9,422 nt of DNA from a virus (lineage: Duplodnaviria > Heunggongvirae > Uroviricota > Caudoviricetes), in IMG/VR virus record IMGVR_UViG_2554235187_000005; one strand, 5' to 3'. Under the pieces are notes generated by a model. It made no database searches, was not told the DNA's origin, and saw only the letters and a program-made list of their open reading frames with translations. This document shows positions 3,090 to 8,572 of this stretch, piece after piece (position 1 is the first letter of the stretch; the number at the start of each line of letters is the position of its first letter). Position numbers and translations under genes: made by a program.

Positions 3090-3388
3090 GTGGTAAATGG
3101 GCGGCTGGTGGGTGTGGTGGTTGTTGCTTTCCCGTTGCTGAAAAAGAAAACGCCAGACTGTTAGCCGGGTATCAGTTAGCGGGAGAAATTTTTAAATACT
3201 TCACAATTCAGGCGGTTGACTGTTGTCTGGTTTGCGGGGAGTTTGTTAAAAGAAACTGGCATGGTGAATCCCCCTGTGCGGAGGGGCAATCAGCGAGTAG
3301 GTATATGGGATAATCGCGGATTCAGGTGCTGGTACTGAATTCACCGGGAGGCACCCGGCACCATGCAATGGCACATAGCGCCACTCTC

Positions 3389-3424
3389 CAGCCCCTCTCC
3401 GGAGGGGCTGTTTATATTGATTTT
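3389..3424. terminator. Strong GC-rich hairpin terminator (+ strand; also closes the convergent minus-strand ORF)
   Basis: 9-bp stem CAGCCCCTC/GAGGGGCTG with loop TCCG (3389-3410) followed by TTTATATTGATTTT. Confidence 0.6.
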
Positions 3425-3444: not shown

Positions 3445-3780
3445 TTATGGACTTTGTTGTTTTAGCCCATAAGGACATATTTGCAGAGTGCAACGGTTAT
3501 TAAAGCATTCATTCAATACGTTATCTGTATTTGTAGGGCATTCCTGGCTGTTTTTGATTAAATTCCAGAATGTTTTATTGAATGGTACTACGTTGTAAAT
3601 GGTTACAGGTAGCACTTTGTTATTGAGCATGATACCTGTGTGAGTCAGTGTAAATATACTTTCAGGAGGTAAGAAAGCATCCGATTGATACCAGATTATT
3701 AATTTTATTTTACTCCATATGACTGAAAAAGATATTCCGCATGATGGCTGGATAACTGTATCAATCACAATCCACTTCAT
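3445..3780 (-). CDS. Hypothetical protein (111 aa), Cys-containing, encoded on an AT-rich island
   Basis: Minus-strand ORF with SD AAGGAAA ~6 nt upstream of ATG (rc of 3781-3795); opposite orientation to the late operon; terminator hairpin just downstream of its stop. Confidence 0.5.
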
Positions 3781-4536: not shown

Positions 4537-4752
4537 ATGTACCAGATGGAAAAAATCACAACAGGTGTGTCATACACCACGTCAGCGGTGGGAACGGGCT
4601 ACTGGTTCCTGCAGTTGCTGGACAGGGTTTCCCCGTCTCAGTGGGCGGCAATAGGCGTGCTGGGGAGTCTGCTGTTTGGGCTGCTGACATATCTGACTAA
4701 CCTGTATTTCAAAATCAAAGAGGACCGGCGTAAGGCGGCGCGGGGAGAGTAA
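4537..4752 (+). CDS. S: Phage-21-type pinholin (class II holin) with dual-start motif
   Basis: 71-aa product [71 protein letters not shown] closely matches recalled S21 pinholin; Met1 and Met4 starts. Confidence 0.85.
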
Positions 4753-4756
4753 AGTG

Positions 4757-5647
4757 ATGAATAAAAAATATGAACTGGTTGTTAAGGGGATAAATAATTA
4801 CGGGGATAAGGTTACTGTTACTGTGAAGTCGGAAGGTGACGGGCAAGCGTCGCTGTTGTTGCCAGATGTGGCGATTAGTCTTGACCGTACTGAAGGTGCC
4901 ACGCTGGAGTTTTACGAAGCTGAGGCGAAAAAGCAGGCGAAGCAGTTTTTCATGGATGTTGCTGCCGGGTTATGTGAATGGAACGAACCGTTGCCGGAAA
5001 AGCGCCCCGTAATTTTAGAGGCGCAGGATGTGTTGATAACCTACAAAGGAAAGCTACCGGGAAGAATTACTTGTTCTCTGAAGATGCCGCCGTCAACACT
5101 GCGGTCAGAAAAAGATGATGTTGAATCACGTATTGAAAAACTGGAGAGCTACGTCGTTGAGCTGAATAAGAAATGGTCGATATTGGTGCCTTCTGGCGAT
5201 GAAAAGCAGTTTGCTGCGTTTGACGATTATTGTCGGAAAGTGATGAGCAGAAATCTCGCAGAGTGTTTCAGTATTCATAATGATAATTTCAGTGACCCGG
5301 AATGGGAGTGTAACCGGCCATCCTTTGTTGTATCCGGTGATGCTGGGAAAATAACCATCTCAGAAAATGGGAAAGTAACACCTCCATCGCACCAGCACAG
5401 TGAGGAGCTCATTGAATTTGCCATTGATTACCTGAAGAACAATAAAAAGCAGGGGCTGATGAAGCGCGTTGGCCGTTGCATGGGATATCTTCAGGTAGCC
5501 GCTGAGATTGAAGCGCTGGCCAGTGGTGCTGATAAGGATGCAATTGTGCGGGAGGCTCTTCTTCGTGATTTTAATACTCCACCCTTTAAAAAAGTGCCGG
5601 CTTACTGGCTTCATCCGGGGCTGACTTATCTTAAAGTGCGTATTTAG
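4757..5647 (+). CDS. Unknown-function protein (~296 aa) inserted between holin and endolysin
   Basis: ATG 4757 (GTG 4754) starts 2-5 nt after the holin stop with GGAGAG SD; long clean ORF, no TM segments, predicted coiled-coil-like stretch (DDVESRIEKLESYVVELNKKW); no family recognised. Confidence 0.7.
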   Translation: MNKKYELVVKGINNYGDKVTVTVKSEGDGQASLLLPDVAISLDRTEGATLEFYEAEAKKQAKQFFMDVAAGLCEWNEPLPEKRPVILEAQDVLITYKGKLPGRITCSLKMPPSTLRSEKDDVESRIEKLESYVVELNKKWSILVPSGDEKQFAAFDDYCRKVMSRNLAECFSIHNDNFSDPEWECNRPSFVVSGDAGKITISENGKVTPPSHQHSEELIEFAIDYLKNNKKQGLMKRVGRCMGYLQVAAEIEALASGADKDAIVREALLRDFNTPPFKKVPAYWLHPGLTYLKVRI

Positions 5648-5683
5648 TGGGCCAGGGACAGCGGCTGAATATTTAATATATCC

Positions 5684-6217
5684 ATGAACACCAAAATCAA
5701 ATACGGCCTGTCGGCTGCCGTTCTGGCGCTGATTGCCGCTGGTGCGCCTGCGCCTGACATTCTCGACCAGTTTCTGGATGAAAAGGAAGGCAACCACACC
5801 ACGGCATACCGTGATGGTGCAGGTATCTGGACCATCTGCCGTGGTGCCATCATGGTGGATGGCAAACCTGTCGTTCCGGGCATGAAGTTGTCGAAGGAAA
5901 AATGCGACCAGGTTAACGCCATTGAGCGTGATAAAGCGCTGGCGTGGGTGGAGAAAAACATCAGAGTGCCGCTGACCGAACCCCAGAAAGCGGGGATCGC
6001 GTCATTCTGTCCGTACAACATTGGTCCCGGTAAGTGTTTCCCGTCGACGTTTTACAGACGAATTAATGCTGGTGATCGAAAAGGTGCCTGCGAAGCGATT
6101 CGCTGGTGGATTAAGGACGGTGGCAGAGACTGCCGTATTCGTTCAAACAACTGTTACGGTCAGGTATCCCGTCGTGACCAGGAGAGCGCGCTGGCGTGCT
6201 GGGGTATCGACAGATAA
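5684..6217 (+). CDS. R: SAR endolysin (T4-lysozyme-like, R21-type)
   Basis: N-terminal Gly/Ala-rich weakly hydrophobic SAR segment (GLSAAVLALIAAGAPAP) followed by an E-x8-D-x5-T catalytic triad (EGNHTTAYRDGAGIWT). Confidence 0.85.
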   Translation: MNTKIKYGLSAAVLALIAAGAPAPDILDQFLDEKEGNHTTAYRDGAGIWTICRGAIMVDGKPVVPGMKLSKEKCDQVNAIERDKALAWVEKNIRVPLTEPQKAGIASFCPYNIGPGKCFPSTFYRRINAGDRKGACEAIRWWIKDGGRDCRIRSNNCYGQVSRRDQESALACWGIDR

Positions 6218-6305
6218 GCAGAATATTTTGCTGAAAAATGAGGAATGGCCACGCGGGCGGATAACACGAAATCCTGCGAACTGGCGAAACGTAAGTGAAT
6301 AAAAG

Positions 6306-6350
6306 TAAAAACCCCGTTTGTTGGCACCAAGCGAGGTTTTGTGTTTCTGA
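6306..6350 (+). terminator. Terminator-like structured element after the endolysin gene
   Basis: Imperfect stem AAAACCCCG/CGAGGTTTT enclosing a mini-hairpin TTGG-CA-CCAA, followed by a T-rich GTGTTTCTG; weak. Confidence 0.25.
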
Positions 6351-6373
6351 CCTTGAGTAAGGCAAGGGAGAAC

Positions 6374-6556
6374 ATGGCGAAGTGTAAACGAATTCTGTTG
6401 AGGTTGACTATGAAAAATGGCCTTGAACTGAAAGCGCCTGTAACTGATGACATCAGCAGAGCACTGGCTTTTGCCATTAAGTGGGTGGCGGTCGGTGTTG
6501 CTGTGTCCCCGATGCTGTATGGGCTGGCAAAACTGGTCATTGCGTTGAAATCGTGA
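6374..6556 (+). CDS. Small membrane protein (60 aa, C-terminal TM helix)
   Basis: ATG 6374 preceded by AAGGGAG; C-terminal hydrophobic segment [27 protein letters not shown]. Confidence 0.5.
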
Positions 6557-6570
6557 AGGGAGGATTAAGC

Positions 6571-6702
6571 ATGTCAGACAAACTCATAACGCTGGCGAAG
6601 ATCCTCTGTGTAATTGTCGGCATTTCATTTTCACTAATGCTGGTTGCTCTTTTTCTTTCCATGGCCTGGATGATGTTGTCTTCGTCGGGGTTGCTGGGGT
6701 GA
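6571..6702 (+). CDS. Small membrane protein (43 aa, single TM helix)
   Basis: ATG 6571 preceded by strong SD GAAGGGAGGA; hydrophobic core [26 protein letters not shown]; stop overlaps the Rz start. Confidence 0.45.
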
Positions 6703-7172
6703 ACATAAACCGAATGCTTTCCGCGTTTATCGTTATTCTGCTGGTGGCCTGTGGTGCGCTGTGGATGGCAACAGACCATTACCGTGATAACGCGATTACC
6801 TACAAAGCGCAGCGCGATAACAAAGCCAGTGAACTGAAGCTGGCGAACGCAACCATTACTGATATGCAGGTGCGCCAGCGCGATGTTGCTGCGCTCGATG
6901 CAAAATACTCGAGGGAATTAGCCGATGCGAGAGCTGAAAATGAAACTCTTCGCGCTGACGTTGCCGCTGGTCGTAAGCGCCTGCGGATCAACGCCACCTG
7001 TCCAGGCTCCGTGCGTGAAGCCCCCACCACCTCCGGCGTGGATAATGCAACCGGCCCCCAACTGGCAGACACCGTTACACGGGATTATTTCACCCTCAGA
7101 GAGCGGCTGATGACGATGCACAAGCAACTGGAAGGGGCACAGGACTATATCCGCACTCAGTGCCTGAAATAA
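6699..7172 (+). CDS. Rz: Rz i-spanin
   Basis: Near-identity to recalled lambda Rz over most of its length ([14 protein letters not shown]..., DYFTLRERL...); N-terminal TM; GTG start at 6699, alternative ATG at 6714. Confidence 0.9.
6940..7110 (+). CDS. Rz1: Rz1 o-spanin lipoprotein embedded in Rz (+1 frame)
   Basis: [15 protein letters not shown] lipobox followed by proline-rich mature region (PPPPPAW); fully nested inside Rz as in lambda; alternative upstream ATG 6925. Confidence 0.8.
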
Positions 7173-7482
7173 GTTTTGTTGATGCGCCGTATCGTCGCTA
7201 TATTCCCTCATTAACAGAGACCGCAGCCCGACAGGGAGACTCCTCTGCGCGAGTGTGCGGGGATAATTAAAAACGATGCACACCGGGTTTTTACCGCGTT
7301 AATGATTCGCGGGTTTATCCCGGTGCGATGGTGGAAGAAACAGGAAGCTGTATTACAGAAAGTGCTACTACTGTATCCCGATGCGATGTATGTAATGTGA
7401 GTCAGATAATGGCACAGGATGTGGTGATGTGGCAGTCTGGAACACAGGATATATTGTCAGAATAAGACCCGTAGGAATAAAA

Positions 7483-7809
7483 ATGAAAAGACGCCTTTTA
7501 CTACTTTTTCTGTTATCTGTCCTGGCAGTGGGATGCTCGCAGCAAAAAGCTGATGAGCCCCGGCAATTAGTGACGGTGTATCCACGATATCCGGAATATG
7601 CTGCAGCAAATTATATCAAGGGGCTGGTTGAGGTTAAGTTCGATATTGGTGCTGATGGGACTGTGACACGGATCGTTTTTCTCCGCTCAGAGCCTCATAA
7701 TTTGTTTCGTGATGAAGTGGTGAAGGCCATGGCGAAATGGCGATTTGAAAAGAATCGCCCCTGTCAGGGAGTGAAGAGACAATTTATCTTTACGCCGTCA
7801 CGTCCTTGA
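7483..7809 (+). CDS. Lipoprotein with TonB C-terminal-like domain (phage moron)
   Basis: SD AGGA 6 nt before ATG; signal peptide plus lipobox LAVGC; mature part matches the TonB-CTD pattern (YPxYPxxA...G-V-V-KFDI--DGTV--I--L-S-P---F--EV--AM--WRF). Confidence 0.6.
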   Translation: MKRRLLLLFLLSVLAVGCSQQKADEPRQLVTVYPRYPEYAAANYIKGLVEVKFDIGADGTVTRIVFLRSEPHNLFRDEVVKAMAKWRFEKNRPCQGVKRQFIFTPSRP

Positions 7810-8172: not shown

Positions 8173-8424
8173 TTATCGGTTTTGGCTACGCAGCATAGTA
8201 CAAAACGGACAGGTGCATCCCGGGACGGGGGAGGCGTCACATGTCCCTGTGATGGTTGTTCCGGGTAATGCACTGTGTGGGGCATAAAAATGTCCGATAA
8301 TTTTACTTTCTACCGCAGTTAGTTGATTCGTTGGTCCTGGTAGCACATTGGGCGAGGATTTAAATGCCAGGCAACTGAAGGATGATGTTGCAAGGGAGAT
8401 AGCGAGAATATTTCTGATTTTCAT
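8173..8424 (-). CDS. Small secreted Cys-rich protein (83 aa, predicted signal peptide)
   Basis: Minus-strand ATG (rc of 8422-8424) with SD AGAGG; N-terminal MKIRNILAISLATSSFSCLA signal-peptide-like; 5 Cys in the mature part. Confidence 0.4.
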   Translation of the reverse strand: MKIRNILAISLATSSFSCLAFKSSPNVLPGPTNQLTAVESKIIGHFYAPHSALPGTTITGTCDASPVPGCTCPFCTMLRSQNR

Positions 8425-8572
8425 TTGATGATGCCTCTGTGTGAAATGACGGTAAACGACGCACTTGTGCCGGCACATAATAGCAAGCACCATAATAGAT
8501 CAGATTCGATTCTTGCTGTAAGTGATAATTATTCTCGTTTTCGGGTCCTTTCCGTCGATCCAACAGGTTACG

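What the first reader, a model, noticed from the sequence alone, without database searches (positions are those of the whole stretch)
6374..6702. Two tiny single-TM proteins inserted between SAR endolysin and Rz
Two consecutive short ORFs (60 aa and 43 aa), each with a good SD and one hydrophobic helix, occupy the gap between R and Rz, which is normally almost empty. The second ends exactly where Rz begins (TGA overlapping the GTG). Small membrane proteins at this position could modulate pinholin triggering or SAR endolysin release, or act as toxin-like peptides.
Basis: partly seen in the sequence, partly recalled or inferred. Interest (0 to 1): 0.6.

Follow-up and report, generated by a model that had tools for sequence, protein, structure and literature searches.

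The report
Two tiny membrane genes before spanin
Two very small, conserved membrane-protein genes of unknown function sit between the wall-cutting enzyme and the outer-membrane-breaking genes of a lambda-like prophage; about a third of complete E. coli genomes and most Shiga-toxin phage records carry them, and they probably fine-tune host bursting rather than act as toxins.

Summary
ORF1 (6374-6556, 60 aa) and ORF2 (6571-6702, 43 aa) are real genes between the SAR endolysin R and Rz/Rz1 of a Qin-like E. coli prophage. Both are under purifying selection in the called frame (pN/pS 0.28 and 0.35). Both match PHROG families of unknown function, and PGAP annotates them as 'hypothetical protein'. 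ORF2 occurs in 1750 of 5426 complete E. coli genomes and in 276 phage records, including 933W, where it is mostly unannotated. It always ends within 11 nt of Rz, or of a small lipoprotein gene. ORF1 relatives lie directly upstream of three different spanin families and after at least five endolysin types, so the pair follows the spanin side and is not tied to pinholin or SAR endolysin. ORF1 probably has two starts (60 and 48 aa) and a weakly hydrophobic, SAR-like helix. ORF2 has a strongly hydrophobic transmembrane helix. No promoter, antisense RNA or known family was found. The best reading (about 0.45) is late-operon, translationally coupled, non-essential inner-membrane modulators of lysis. 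The main rival is unrelated cargo such as superinfection exclusion. Function is untested, and interest is moderate.

The parts
4537..4752 (+). Class II (phage 21 S-type) holin, 71 aa, with the usual M1/M4 dual start. It is the context for the lysis cassette.
   Evidence: Pfam PF04971 2e-32. PGAP 'class II holin family protein' in strain 7/2.
5684..6217 (+). SAR-type lysozyme R, 177 aa
   Evidence: Pfam PF00959 2.4e-24. The N-terminal segment is weakly hydrophobic, KD19 1.74.
6218..6373 (+). Conserved post-R leader of about 155 bp, with a hairpin at 6308-6340 flanked by T-runs on both strands. ORF1 or ant is inserted after it.
   Evidence: Query positions 1-155 match most Stx phages and more than 2000 E. 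coli genomes. Terminator-like site found. Fold -12 kcal/mol, z only -1.0 and -1.7. No promoter found.
6374..6556 (+). ORF1 long form, 60 aa (phrog_1115). It has a basic N-extension ([12 protein letters not shown]), a conserved head ([16 protein letters not shown]) and a weakly hydrophobic C-terminal helix.
   Evidence: PGAP CDS WP_001446668.1. phrog_1115 3.7e-42. pN/pS 0.28 against 0.67-4.0 in the other frames, except the antisense frame in codon register, 0.42. The N-extension has pN/pS 0.29 among distant homologues. AlphaFold2 (AF2) helix 23-59, pLDDT about 90.
6410..6556 (+). ORF1 short form, 48 aa, from the internal start Met13 with its own SD (GAGG 6400-6403)
   Evidence: GAGGTTG with ATG 6 nt downstream of the GAGG core is kept at nucleotide level in 12 diverged homologues, including the rare AGG codon. 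Met13 is nearly invariant. Many database entries are called as 48 aa.
6571..6702 (+). ORF2, 43 aa (phrog_4906): a single strongly hydrophobic TM helix. It is the conserved gene immediately upstream of the spanin.
   Evidence: PGAP CDS WP_001280932.1. phrog_4906 2.1e-23. pN/pS 0.35 with no internal stops in 38 distinct sequences. KD19 2.89. AF2 single helix 2-38, pLDDT 88.5. 276 phage records and 1750 of 5426 E. coli genomes.
6699..7172 (+). Rz i-spanin. The start is either GTG 6699, overlapping the ORF2 stop (GTGA), or ATG 6714 (PGAP).
   Evidence: Pfam PF03245 2e-47, phrog_13. Junction comparison.
6925..7110 (+). Rz1 o-spanin lipoprotein, embedded in Rz
   Evidence: ORF with lipobox LVVSAC and a proline-rich mature part. 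Same architecture as annotated in 933W.

Best explanation
Both ORFs are real protein-coding genes of the phage late (lysis) operon. They form a small accessory module that is portable between otherwise unrelated lysis cassettes, and it sits at the junction between the endolysin and the spanin. ORF2 is a 43-aa single-pass inner-membrane protein. In E. coli lambdoid and Stx phages it is the constant gene immediately upstream of the spanin. ORF1 is made in two forms from two in-frame starts. The 48-aa form has a neutral to acidic head (MKNGLE..APVT.[DE]IS) and a weakly hydrophobic, SAR-like helix followed by basic residues. The 60-aa form adds a head with net charge about +4, which should change or block membrane insertion of the N-terminus. 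The genes are translated in series. The ORF1 stop lies 14 nt before the ORF2 ATG, and the ORF2 stop overlaps the Rz start or lies 4-11 nt before it. So the proteins appear together with holin, endolysin and spanin. Inferred mechanism: they sit in the inner membrane as non-essential modulators of the lysis programme. They could set or buffer when the membrane step fires (antiholin-like logic, with the ORF1 dual start as the switch), and/or restrain or assist the i-spanin whose gene they precede. Shown here: coding status, conservation, membrane character, synteny and the coupling geometry. Inferred only: expression timing, topology, dual-start usage and any effect on lysis.
For: Coding: pN/pS is 0.28 for ORF1 and 0.35 for ORF2 in the called frame, with third-position variation dominant and no stops. 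The other frames give 0.67-4.0, except the antisense frame in codon register, at about 0.41-0.42. Family membership: phrog_1115 and phrog_4906. Spread: ORF2 in 1750 and ORF1 in 1598 of 5426 complete E. coli genomes, and ORF2 in 276 phage records including 933W. They are also present in phages whose records list K-12 or E. coli C as host. Synteny over 316 loci: S21 holin>R>ORF1>ORF2>Rz; S21 holin>R>ant>ORF2>Rz; GH108 or M15>ORF1>ORF2>small lipoprotein; Salmonella lysozyme, GH19 or ant>ORF1>Rz. Distant ORF1 homologues lie directly upstream of three different i-/o-spanin families. Coupling geometry is conserved in every context. No promoter was found on either strand of 5600-7500. Dual start: the N-extension is under coding constraint (pN/pS 0.29), and the internal SD plus ATG are invariant at nucleotide level. 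Membrane character. Precedent for a separate lysis-timing gene between endolysin and spanin: P2 Y-K-lysA-lysB-lysC (PMC3091744).
Against: There is no expression or phenotype data for either gene. No paper mentions the sequences or accessions, and they are not in the Sakai Ribo-seq supplements searched. There is no detectable homology to any holin, antiholin, releasin or spanin family. By established knowledge, lambda, 21 and P22 lyse without them, so any role is accessory. The same slot also carries obvious cargo (ant, a DNA methylase), and a few ORF1 relatives sit among tail genes, outside lysis cassettes. ORF2 topology is ambiguous by charge: both flanks are about +1 in many variants. pN/pS of 0.3 on such short genes rests on few substitutions.
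Confidence: 0.45

Rival explanations
1. The two genes are cargo (moron-like) genes unrelated to lysis. They could be small inner-membrane proteins that block superinfection or DNA entry, or that alter the host envelope. On this view they sit in the R-Rz junction only because that junction tolerates insertions.
For: The same slot holds ant in Stx phages and a DNA methylase in L318. ORF1 relatives occur between tail genes, or after tail-fibre genes, in L317, L319, L169 and L170. Neighbouring positions carry known or likely cargo: bor in 933W and a TonB_C lipoprotein here. Small inner-membrane superinfection-exclusion proteins from lambdoid morons, such as HK97 gp15, are established (own knowledge).
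Against: No promoter or terminator of their own was found, and they are tightly coupled to late genes, so they should be silent in the lysogen, where exclusion genes normally act. Adjacency to the spanin gene is kept across three spanin families and at least five endolysin types, which random cargo insertion does not predict. There are no PADLOC hits.
Confidence: 0.25
2. They take part directly in envelope disruption. Together with a short outer-membrane lipoprotein they would form an alternative last-step lysis device, and in Rz/Rz1 phages they would assist the spanin.
For: In 36 of the loci tabulated, a GH108, M15 or cut-off upstream end is followed by ORF1>ORF2 and then a 60-aa lipoprotein (phrog_7528, unknown function), with no match to the window's Rz in the stretch held. 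In L321, ORF1 is followed by a different 59-aa lipoprotein. Kongari et al. found no spanin in 91 of 677 phages (PMC6139136).
Against: At most 14 residues follow the ORF2 hydrophobic core, and the mature lipoprotein has about 29, which is too short to bridge the periplasm as spanins do. Spanins elsewhere in those genomes were not excluded. In the window a complete Rz/Rz1 pair is present.
Confidence: 0.08
3. They are leader ORFs. Only the act of translating them matters, because it delivers ribosomes to the poorly initiated Rz. The peptides themselves would have no function.
For: The ORF2 stop lies within 11 nt of the downstream start, or overlaps it, in every context. Its last codons (GGTGGGGTGA or GGTGGATAG) resemble an SD for the next gene. 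The candidate Rz starts in the window lack a good SD.
Against: The amino-acid sequence is constrained: pN/pS 0.28-0.35, with invariant K4, S19 and F20 in ORF2 and FAIKW..G..S...YG in ORF1. In L318, Rz is coupled to a methylase gene instead, yet ORF1 is kept. Length and hydrophobic character are conserved.
Confidence: 0.07
4. ORF2, or the pair, is a type I toxin-like membrane peptide held in check by an antisense RNA.
For: ORF2 is 43 aa, mostly one very hydrophobic helix, like Hok or Ldr-class toxins. Its SD can pair with codons 9-12 in the predicted fold. The hairpin at 6308-6340 would also work as a minus-strand terminator.
Against: No promoter-like site was found on either strand of 5600-7500. 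There is no Rfam hit in the region. The fold of the ORF2 region is not better than shuffles, z 0.02. The gene is embedded in and coupled to the late operon in all contexts.
Confidence: 0.04
5. The ORFs are chance ORFs in a non-coding spacer, or the antisense ORFs (6160-6540 and 6537-6779, minus strand) are the real genes.
For: A single ORF of at least 43 codons arises in 34% of shuffles. The antisense frame in codon register is open and shows pN/pS of about 0.41.
Against: The sense frames have the lowest pN/pS and no stops across 33-38 distinct sequences. Both sense products match PHROG families, and the antisense products match none. The antisense signal is the expected mirror of a sense TM-coding frame. 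The antisense ORFs would also run across the R 3' end and the Rz 5' end.
Confidence: 0.02

Closest known systems
Phage P2 LysA (separate antiholin gene in the Y-K-lysA-lysB-lysC cassette)
   Same: It is a non-essential membrane protein whose gene lies between the endolysin and the Rz/Rz1-like spanin genes, in the same operon. It is annotated as affecting lysis timing (PMC3091744).
   Different: LysA is 141 aa with four predicted TMDs. ORF1 and ORF2 are 48-60 and 43 aa with one helix each. hhalign probability is 1.5-1.6%. A phenotype is known for LysA and none is known here.
Dual-start holin/antiholin pairs (lambda S105/S107; phage 21 S68/S71)
   Same: ORF1 has two in-frame starts, each with an SD. 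The longer product carries extra N-terminal positive charge next to a membrane helix, and it is encoded in a lysis cassette. The helix is weakly hydrophobic, like the SAR-type TMD1 of S21.
   Different: The starts are 12 codons apart rather than 1-3. There is no charged C-terminal tail and no match to any holin Pfam or PHROG family. A bona fide S21-type holin is already present upstream. Use of both starts is untested.
Phage Mu gp25 releasin (DUF2730)
   Same: It is a small membrane-anchored accessory lysis protein encoded a few genes from a SAR endolysin.
   Different: The releasin is 99 aa with a 73-aa cytoplasmic domain and belongs to DUF2730. Neither ORF matches any Pfam family at threshold. 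ORF1 and ORF2 also accompany GH108, M15 and GH19 endolysins, not only SAR lysozymes.
Small inner-membrane superinfection-exclusion proteins of lambdoid morons (e.g. HK97 gp15; own knowledge)
   Same: They are tiny inner-membrane proteins of temperate enterobacterial phages that move as cassettes. Some ORF1 relatives sit among tail genes, as gp15 does.
   Different: Morons carry their own promoter and terminator and are expressed from the prophage. None was found here, and the genes are coupled to late lysis genes. Homology was not tested because no reference sequence was at hand.
Type I toxins (Hok, Ldr, TisB class)
   Same: They share the size and extreme hydrophobicity of ORF2.
   Different: No antisense RNA, no independent promoter and no long structured 5' UTR were found, and the context is an operon.

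Membership tests
PHROG phrog_1115 (ORF1) and phrog_4906 (ORF2), both 'unknown function' | Significant full-length match to the family HMM | tested here: met
   ORF1 3.7e-42 (residues 1-60 against profile 8-67 of 67). ORF2 2.1e-23 (residues 1-43 against profile 7-49 of 49).
Holin / antiholin (dual-start type) | Small membrane protein with at least one TMD, encoded in the lysis cassette | tested here: met
   Position between R and Rz. Hydrophobic helices.
Holin / antiholin (dual-start type) | Two in-frame starts giving products that differ in N-terminal positive charge | tested here: inconclusive
   ORF1 has ATG 6374 and ATG 6410, each with an SD. The N-extension has pN/pS 0.29, and the internal GAGGTTG and the ATG are invariant. 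Actual use of both starts is not testable with these tools.
Holin / antiholin (dual-start type) | Sequence membership in a known holin family; charged hydrophilic C-terminal tail | tested here: not met
   There are no holin hits in Pfam, PHROGs or NCBIfam. The C-termini are ...LVIALKS and ...SSSGLLG.
Holin / antiholin (dual-start type) | Lethal, energy-poison-triggerable hole formation, or a delay of it | not testable with these tools
   This needs induction and lysis-curve experiments.
P2 LysA-type antiholin | Gene between the endolysin and the Rz/Rz1-like genes | tested here: met
P2 LysA-type antiholin | Homology to LysA; four TMDs | tested here: not met
   hhalign probability 1.5% (ORF1) and 1.6% (ORF2). 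Each ORF has one helix.
Mu releasin (DUF2730) | DUF2730 domain; N-terminal TMD plus a cytoplasmic domain of about 70 aa | tested here: not met
   No Pfam hit at E<=1 except a sub-threshold DUF3930 match for ORF2. The proteins are 43-60 aa.
Spanins (i-, o- or u-spanin) | i-spanin: N-terminal TMD plus a long periplasmic domain. o- or u-spanin: lipobox. | tested here: not met
   At most 14 residues follow the ORF2 hydrophobic core. Neither ORF has a lipobox. There are no spanin PHROG hits for ORF1 or ORF2.
Type I toxin-antitoxin | Small hydrophobic membrane peptide | tested here: met
   ORF2 has KD19 2.89.
Type I toxin-antitoxin | Own promoter and an overlapping or adjacent antisense RNA | tested here: not met
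   No promoter-like site on either strand of 5600-7500. No Rfam match in the region. A consensus scan cannot exclude weak promoters.
Anti-phage defence proteins (PADLOC) | Match to a PADLOC model | tested here: not met
   Zero families at E<=1 for either ORF.

The most novel reading that the evidence does not exclude
ORF1 and ORF2 define a new, spanin-linked class of lysis-cassette regulators. ORF1 would be a dual-start micro-protein whose two forms (60 and 48 aa) take opposite topologies. ORF2 would be a single-pass partner. Together they would gate the last membrane steps of lysis: holin triggering, or premature spanin action. In cassettes without Rz/Rz1 they would work with a 60-aa lipoprotein as an alternative outer-membrane disruption route. 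That would add an unrecognised component to the lambdoid/Stx lysis paradigm, present in 933W and Sakai Sp5.
Probability: 0.25. Interest if true: 0.7.

Novelty: new variant of a known kind. Interest (0 to 1): 0.5.

Why it matters
Lysis by lambdoid phages is one of the best-understood pathways in virology, usually described with four or five proteins: holin/antiholin, endolysin, Rz and Rz1. Here two further conserved genes sit inside that cassette. They occur in about 30% of complete E. coli genomes and in most Stx-phage records searched, including 933W, where ORF2 is not even annotated. If they tune lysis timing or spanin action, they affect burst size. In Stx phages they would also affect the timing of toxin release, because toxin exits at lysis. 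The hypothesis is directly testable with standard inducible-lysogen genetics. If they turn out to be cargo, they are still a very common uncharacterised pair of E. coli small membrane proteins.

Tried and rejected
- Pfam, NCBIfam, PADLOC and PDB sequence searches gave nothing for either ORF.
- Rfam on the whole window gave nothing in 6200-6720.
- RNA folds of the ORF2 region and of the post-R leader are no better than shuffles, so a structured-RNA explanation was dropped.
- Species-representative genomes gave no ORF1 hit. ORF2 gave a single 328-bp contig in a Xanthomonas assembly, probably contamination. The families are therefore confined to prophages absent from reference strains.
- The exhaustive profile search for ORF1 found only 18 clusters in 1.8 billion representatives, with no link to a larger family.
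- Full-text searches for peptide strings, WP_/YP_ accessions and ECs_5707 found nothing.
- The Sakai Ribo-seq paper's supplements contain no entry at the Sp5 coordinates or flanking locus tags.
- The enterobacterial microproteome preprint does not mention lysis genes.
- Profile comparisons rejected homology of ORF1 or ORF2 to P2 LysA, and of ORF1 to ORF2.
- The antisense ORFs have no PHROG match.
- A distant-homologue alignment was too divergent for pattern scanning, so single sequences were used instead.
- An apparent Rz-plus-lipoprotein locus (L151) proved to have an ordinary Rz/Rz1.
- Fold searches were not run, because single-helix models give meaningless matches.

Full report
**What the window is.**
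The window is the late region of a Qin-like lambdoid prophage of E. coli. The 485 bp from 6218 to 6702 is 100% identical to the chromosomes of strain 7/2 and several other human isolates. Annotation of the matching locus and domain searches give this gene order:
- DUF968, RusA and Q
- a phage-21-type class II holin (4537-4752)
- a 297-aa YdfR/DUF1327 protein (4754-5647)
- a SAR-type lysozyme R (5684-6217)
- the two small ORFs
- Rz (6699 or 6714 to 7172) with Rz1 embedded (6925-7110)
- a TonB_C lipoprotein (7483-7809)
- the small terminase subunit

**Check of the observation.**
- ORF1 is ATG 6374 to TGA 6556 (60 aa). ORF2 is ATG 6571 to TGA 6702 (43 aa). PGAP annotates exactly these as hypothetical proteins WP_001446668.1 and WP_001280932.1.
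- Both have Shine-Dalgarno (SD) sequences. ORF2's is strong: GGAGG, 7 nt upstream.
- The ORF2 stop overlaps a GTG (GTGA at 6699-6702). PGAP prefers ATG 6714 for Rz. In 933W-type phages Rz begins ATG-AAC-CGT (MNR...), and the window has ATA-AAC-CGA at the same place. The ancestral ATG is therefore lost.
- ORF presence alone is weak evidence. One ORF of at least 43 codons appears in 34% of shuffles of the gap. The tandem pair appears in 0.4%.

**Are they genes?**
I collected 316 related loci.
- Across 38 distinct ORF2 and 33 distinct ORF1 nucleotide sequences there are no internal stops.
- Variable sites concentrate at third codon positions: 27/19/39 for ORF2 and 19/9/37 for ORF1.
- Pooled Nei-Gojobori pN/pS is 0.35 for ORF2 and 0.28 for ORF1. 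Other frames give 0.67-4.0. The exception is the antisense frame in codon register (about 0.41-0.42), which is the expected mirror of the sense signal.
- The antisense ORFs have no PHROG match.
- ORF1 matches phrog_1115 (3.7e-42) and ORF2 matches phrog_4906 (2.1e-23). Both families are labelled 'unknown function'.
- The region has no Rfam match, and its RNA fold is not better than shuffles.

Both are therefore real protein-coding genes.

**Distribution.**
- ORF2 DNA is found in 1750 of 5426 complete E. coli genomes, with up to 11 copies per genome. ORF1 DNA is found in 1598.
- By tblastn, ORF2 is full-length at 65-100% identity in 276 phage records. These are overwhelmingly Stx-converting phages, including 933W, vB_EcoP_24B and Min27. 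In about 48 of the 60 sampled rows no feature is annotated there.
- In 933W, ORF2 lies in the 'empty' 153 bp between ant and Rz. The current Sakai RefSeq calls it ECs_5707.
- ORF1 also occurs in E. marmotae and Salmonella enterica prophages.
- Neither gene is in the species-representative genomes.
- An exhaustive profile search for ORF1 found only 18 clusters at 50% identity among 1.8 billion representatives. The families are narrow and enterobacterial.
- No paper in the library mentions them. The Sakai Ribo-seq supplements have no entry there.

**Synteny, the most informative result.**
The main architectures across the loci are:

| Architecture | Loci |
|---|---|
| S21 holin>SAR-R>ORF1>ORF2>Rz, with or without the TonB_C lipoprotein | about 160 |
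| S21 holin>SAR-R>ant>ORF2>Rz (933W type) | about 80 |
| GH108>ORF1>ORF2>60-aa lipoprotein | 27 |
| M15>ORF1>ORF2>60-aa lipoprotein | 2 |

- In the last two classes the holins are Phage_holin_8 and a 3-TM holin, and there is no match to the window's Rz in the stretch held.
- In Salmonella, ORF1 alone sits 10-20 nt upstream of Rz. It follows a lysozyme, a GH19 endolysin (with a lambda-S-like holin) or an ant gene.
- More distant ORF1 homologues (35-60% identity) lie directly upstream of three unrelated i-spanin/embedded o-spanin pairs, and after at least five endolysin types. In one case ORF1 precedes a different small lipoprotein. Three lineages are exceptions, with the gene among tail genes.
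- ORF2 always stops 4-11 nt before the next start, or overlaps it. Its last codons form an SD-like GGTGGGG or GGTGGA.

The constant neighbour is therefore the spanin side, not the holin or endolysin type. It also argues against random cargo placement.

**Anatomy of the proteins.**
- ORF2 has a strongly hydrophobic core (best 19-residue Kyte-Doolittle window, KD19, 2.89; summed dGapp -3.8). It is predicted as one helix, residues 2-38 (pLDDT 88.5). Invariant residues are K4, S19 and F20. The flank charges are nearly balanced, so topology is unresolved.
- ORF1's hydrophobic segment is weak (KD19 1.88; dGapp +4.0), close to the SAR domain of R (1.74; +5.5). It has an invariant FAIKW...G...S...YG core bounded by basic residues, and is predicted as a helix, residues 23-59.
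- ORF1 and ORF2 are not related to each other.

**A probable dual start in ORF1.**
- Met13 is nearly invariant.
- GAGGTTG, with the ATG 6 nt downstream of the GAGG core, is kept at the nucleotide level in 12 diverged homologues. This includes the rare Arg codon AGG and one specific Leu codon, as expected for an internal SD.
- The nine codons upstream (YKRILLRLT) still evolve as coding sequence: pN/pS 0.29, with synonymous ATT/ATC/ATA and CTG/CTC/CTA changes. An ATG, GTG or TTG start is usually present 10-12 codons upstream.
- Within the close E. coli set alone, codons 1-12 gave pN/pS of about 1, based on very few changes. The case therefore rests on the distant homologues.
- Two products are thus likely. 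The 48-aa form has a neutral to acidic head and a basic C-terminal side, which by the positive-inside rule predicts N-out/C-in. The 60-aa form carries about four extra positive charges at its N-terminus. This is the logic of holin/antiholin dual starts, but it is inference only.

**Expression context.**
No sigma-70-like promoter was found on either strand of 5600-7500. The inter-cistronic gaps are 14 nt or less. The 155-bp block after R is conserved in most Stx phages. Its hairpin (6308-6340) is unremarkable energetically. The simplest reading is transcription from the Q-dependent late promoter and serial, coupled translation of ORF1, ORF2 and Rz. This is inferred from geometry and has not been shown.

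**Comparison with known systems.**
- The nearest analogue by position and type is P2 LysA, a non-essential membrane protein between endolysin K and the spanins LysB/LysC that affects lysis timing (PMC3091744). There is no homology, and LysA has four TMDs.
- The Mu releasin is a 99-aa DUF2730 protein (PMC9239132). Neither ORF matches it.
- The two ORFs are not spanins: they lack both a periplasmic domain and a lipobox.
- They match no holin family, no PADLOC family and nothing with a solved structure.
- The type I toxin reading lacks a promoter and an antisense RNA.

**Verdict.**
I commit, at about 0.45, to non-essential, late-expressed inner-membrane modulators of the lysis programme. They travel with the spanin genes, and ORF1 acts through a dual-start switch. 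The main rival, at about 0.25, is unrelated cargo such as superinfection exclusion. The genes are already catalogued as hypothetical families, so the sequences themselves are not new. What is new is their placement as a conserved, portable, spanin-adjacent pair, the probable dual start, and the unannotated ORF2 in 933W-type phages. Interest is moderate: a lysis specialist would want to test it, but nothing here overturns the current model.

Noticed in passing
window 7483-7809 (+): A 108-aa lipoprotein with a TonB C-terminal domain (PF03544, 7e-13) sits directly after Rz/Rz1, in the slot where 933W carries bor. PHROGs labels its family (phrog_1267) 'Rz-like spanin', which looks like a mislabel. 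It might interfere with TonB-dependent uptake.
   Followed up: partly
window 4754-5647 (+): An intact 297-aa YdfR/DUF1327-containing ORF lies between holin S and endolysin R and matches phrog_1085 over its full length (3e-190). PGAP annotates only a truncated 'YdfR family protein' pseudogene there in the identical strain 7/2.
   Followed up: partly
window 3230-3419 (+) and 3445-3780 (-): An STnc100 sRNA (Rfam RF02076, 132 bits, E 1e-29) lies downstream of Q, next to an iraM (anti-adapter) gene on the opposite strand.
   Followed up: no
window 6218-6373, hairpin 6308-6340: A non-coding block of about 155 bp after R is conserved in more than 2000 E. coli genomes and most Stx phages, whatever follows it (ORF1 or ant). 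It contains a hairpin with T-runs on both strands, but its stability is not above shuffles (z -1.0 and -1.7).
   Followed up: partly
window 6559-6566 with 6594-6601: In the predicted fold, the ORF2 Shine-Dalgarno (GGAGGAUU) pairs with ORF2 codons 9-12 (AGAUCCUC). Similar pairing appears in several but not all ORF2 variants, and not in the 933W type. It could make ORF2 translation depend on ribosomes finishing ORF1.
   Followed up: partly
L006 2913-3095; L010 2155-2337; L321 3120-3299: In lysis cassettes with GH108 or M15 endolysins (L006, L010), ORF1 and/or ORF2 is followed by a lipoprotein of about 60 aa (phrog_7528, unknown function). No match to the window's Rz was found in the stretch held. 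L321 has a different, long endolysin-like ORF, followed by ORF1 and an unrelated 59-aa lipoprotein. These may be spanin-less cassettes.
   Followed up: partly
L008 (933W, AF125520) 2498-2632; L316 (Sakai) 8383-8529: The ORF2 homologue is unannotated in 933W and in most Stx-phage GenBank records. In the current Sakai RefSeq it is called as a 48-aa protein (ECs_5707) whose upstream ATG overlaps the ant stop codon.
   Followed up: yes
L007 2793-3043; L054; protein P0214: Rearranged versions exist: ORF2>ORF1' and ORF1>ORF2>ORF1'. In these a second copy of the ORF1 C-terminal core starts inside the 3' end of ORF2 in another frame. One database protein is an ORF2-N/ORF1-C fusion.
   Followed up: partly
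L164 (Xanthomonas pisi DSM 18956, 328-bp contig): The only ORF2 hit among species-representative genomes is a 328-bp contig in a Xanthomonas assembly. It is probably contamination with E. coli phage DNA.
   Followed up: no
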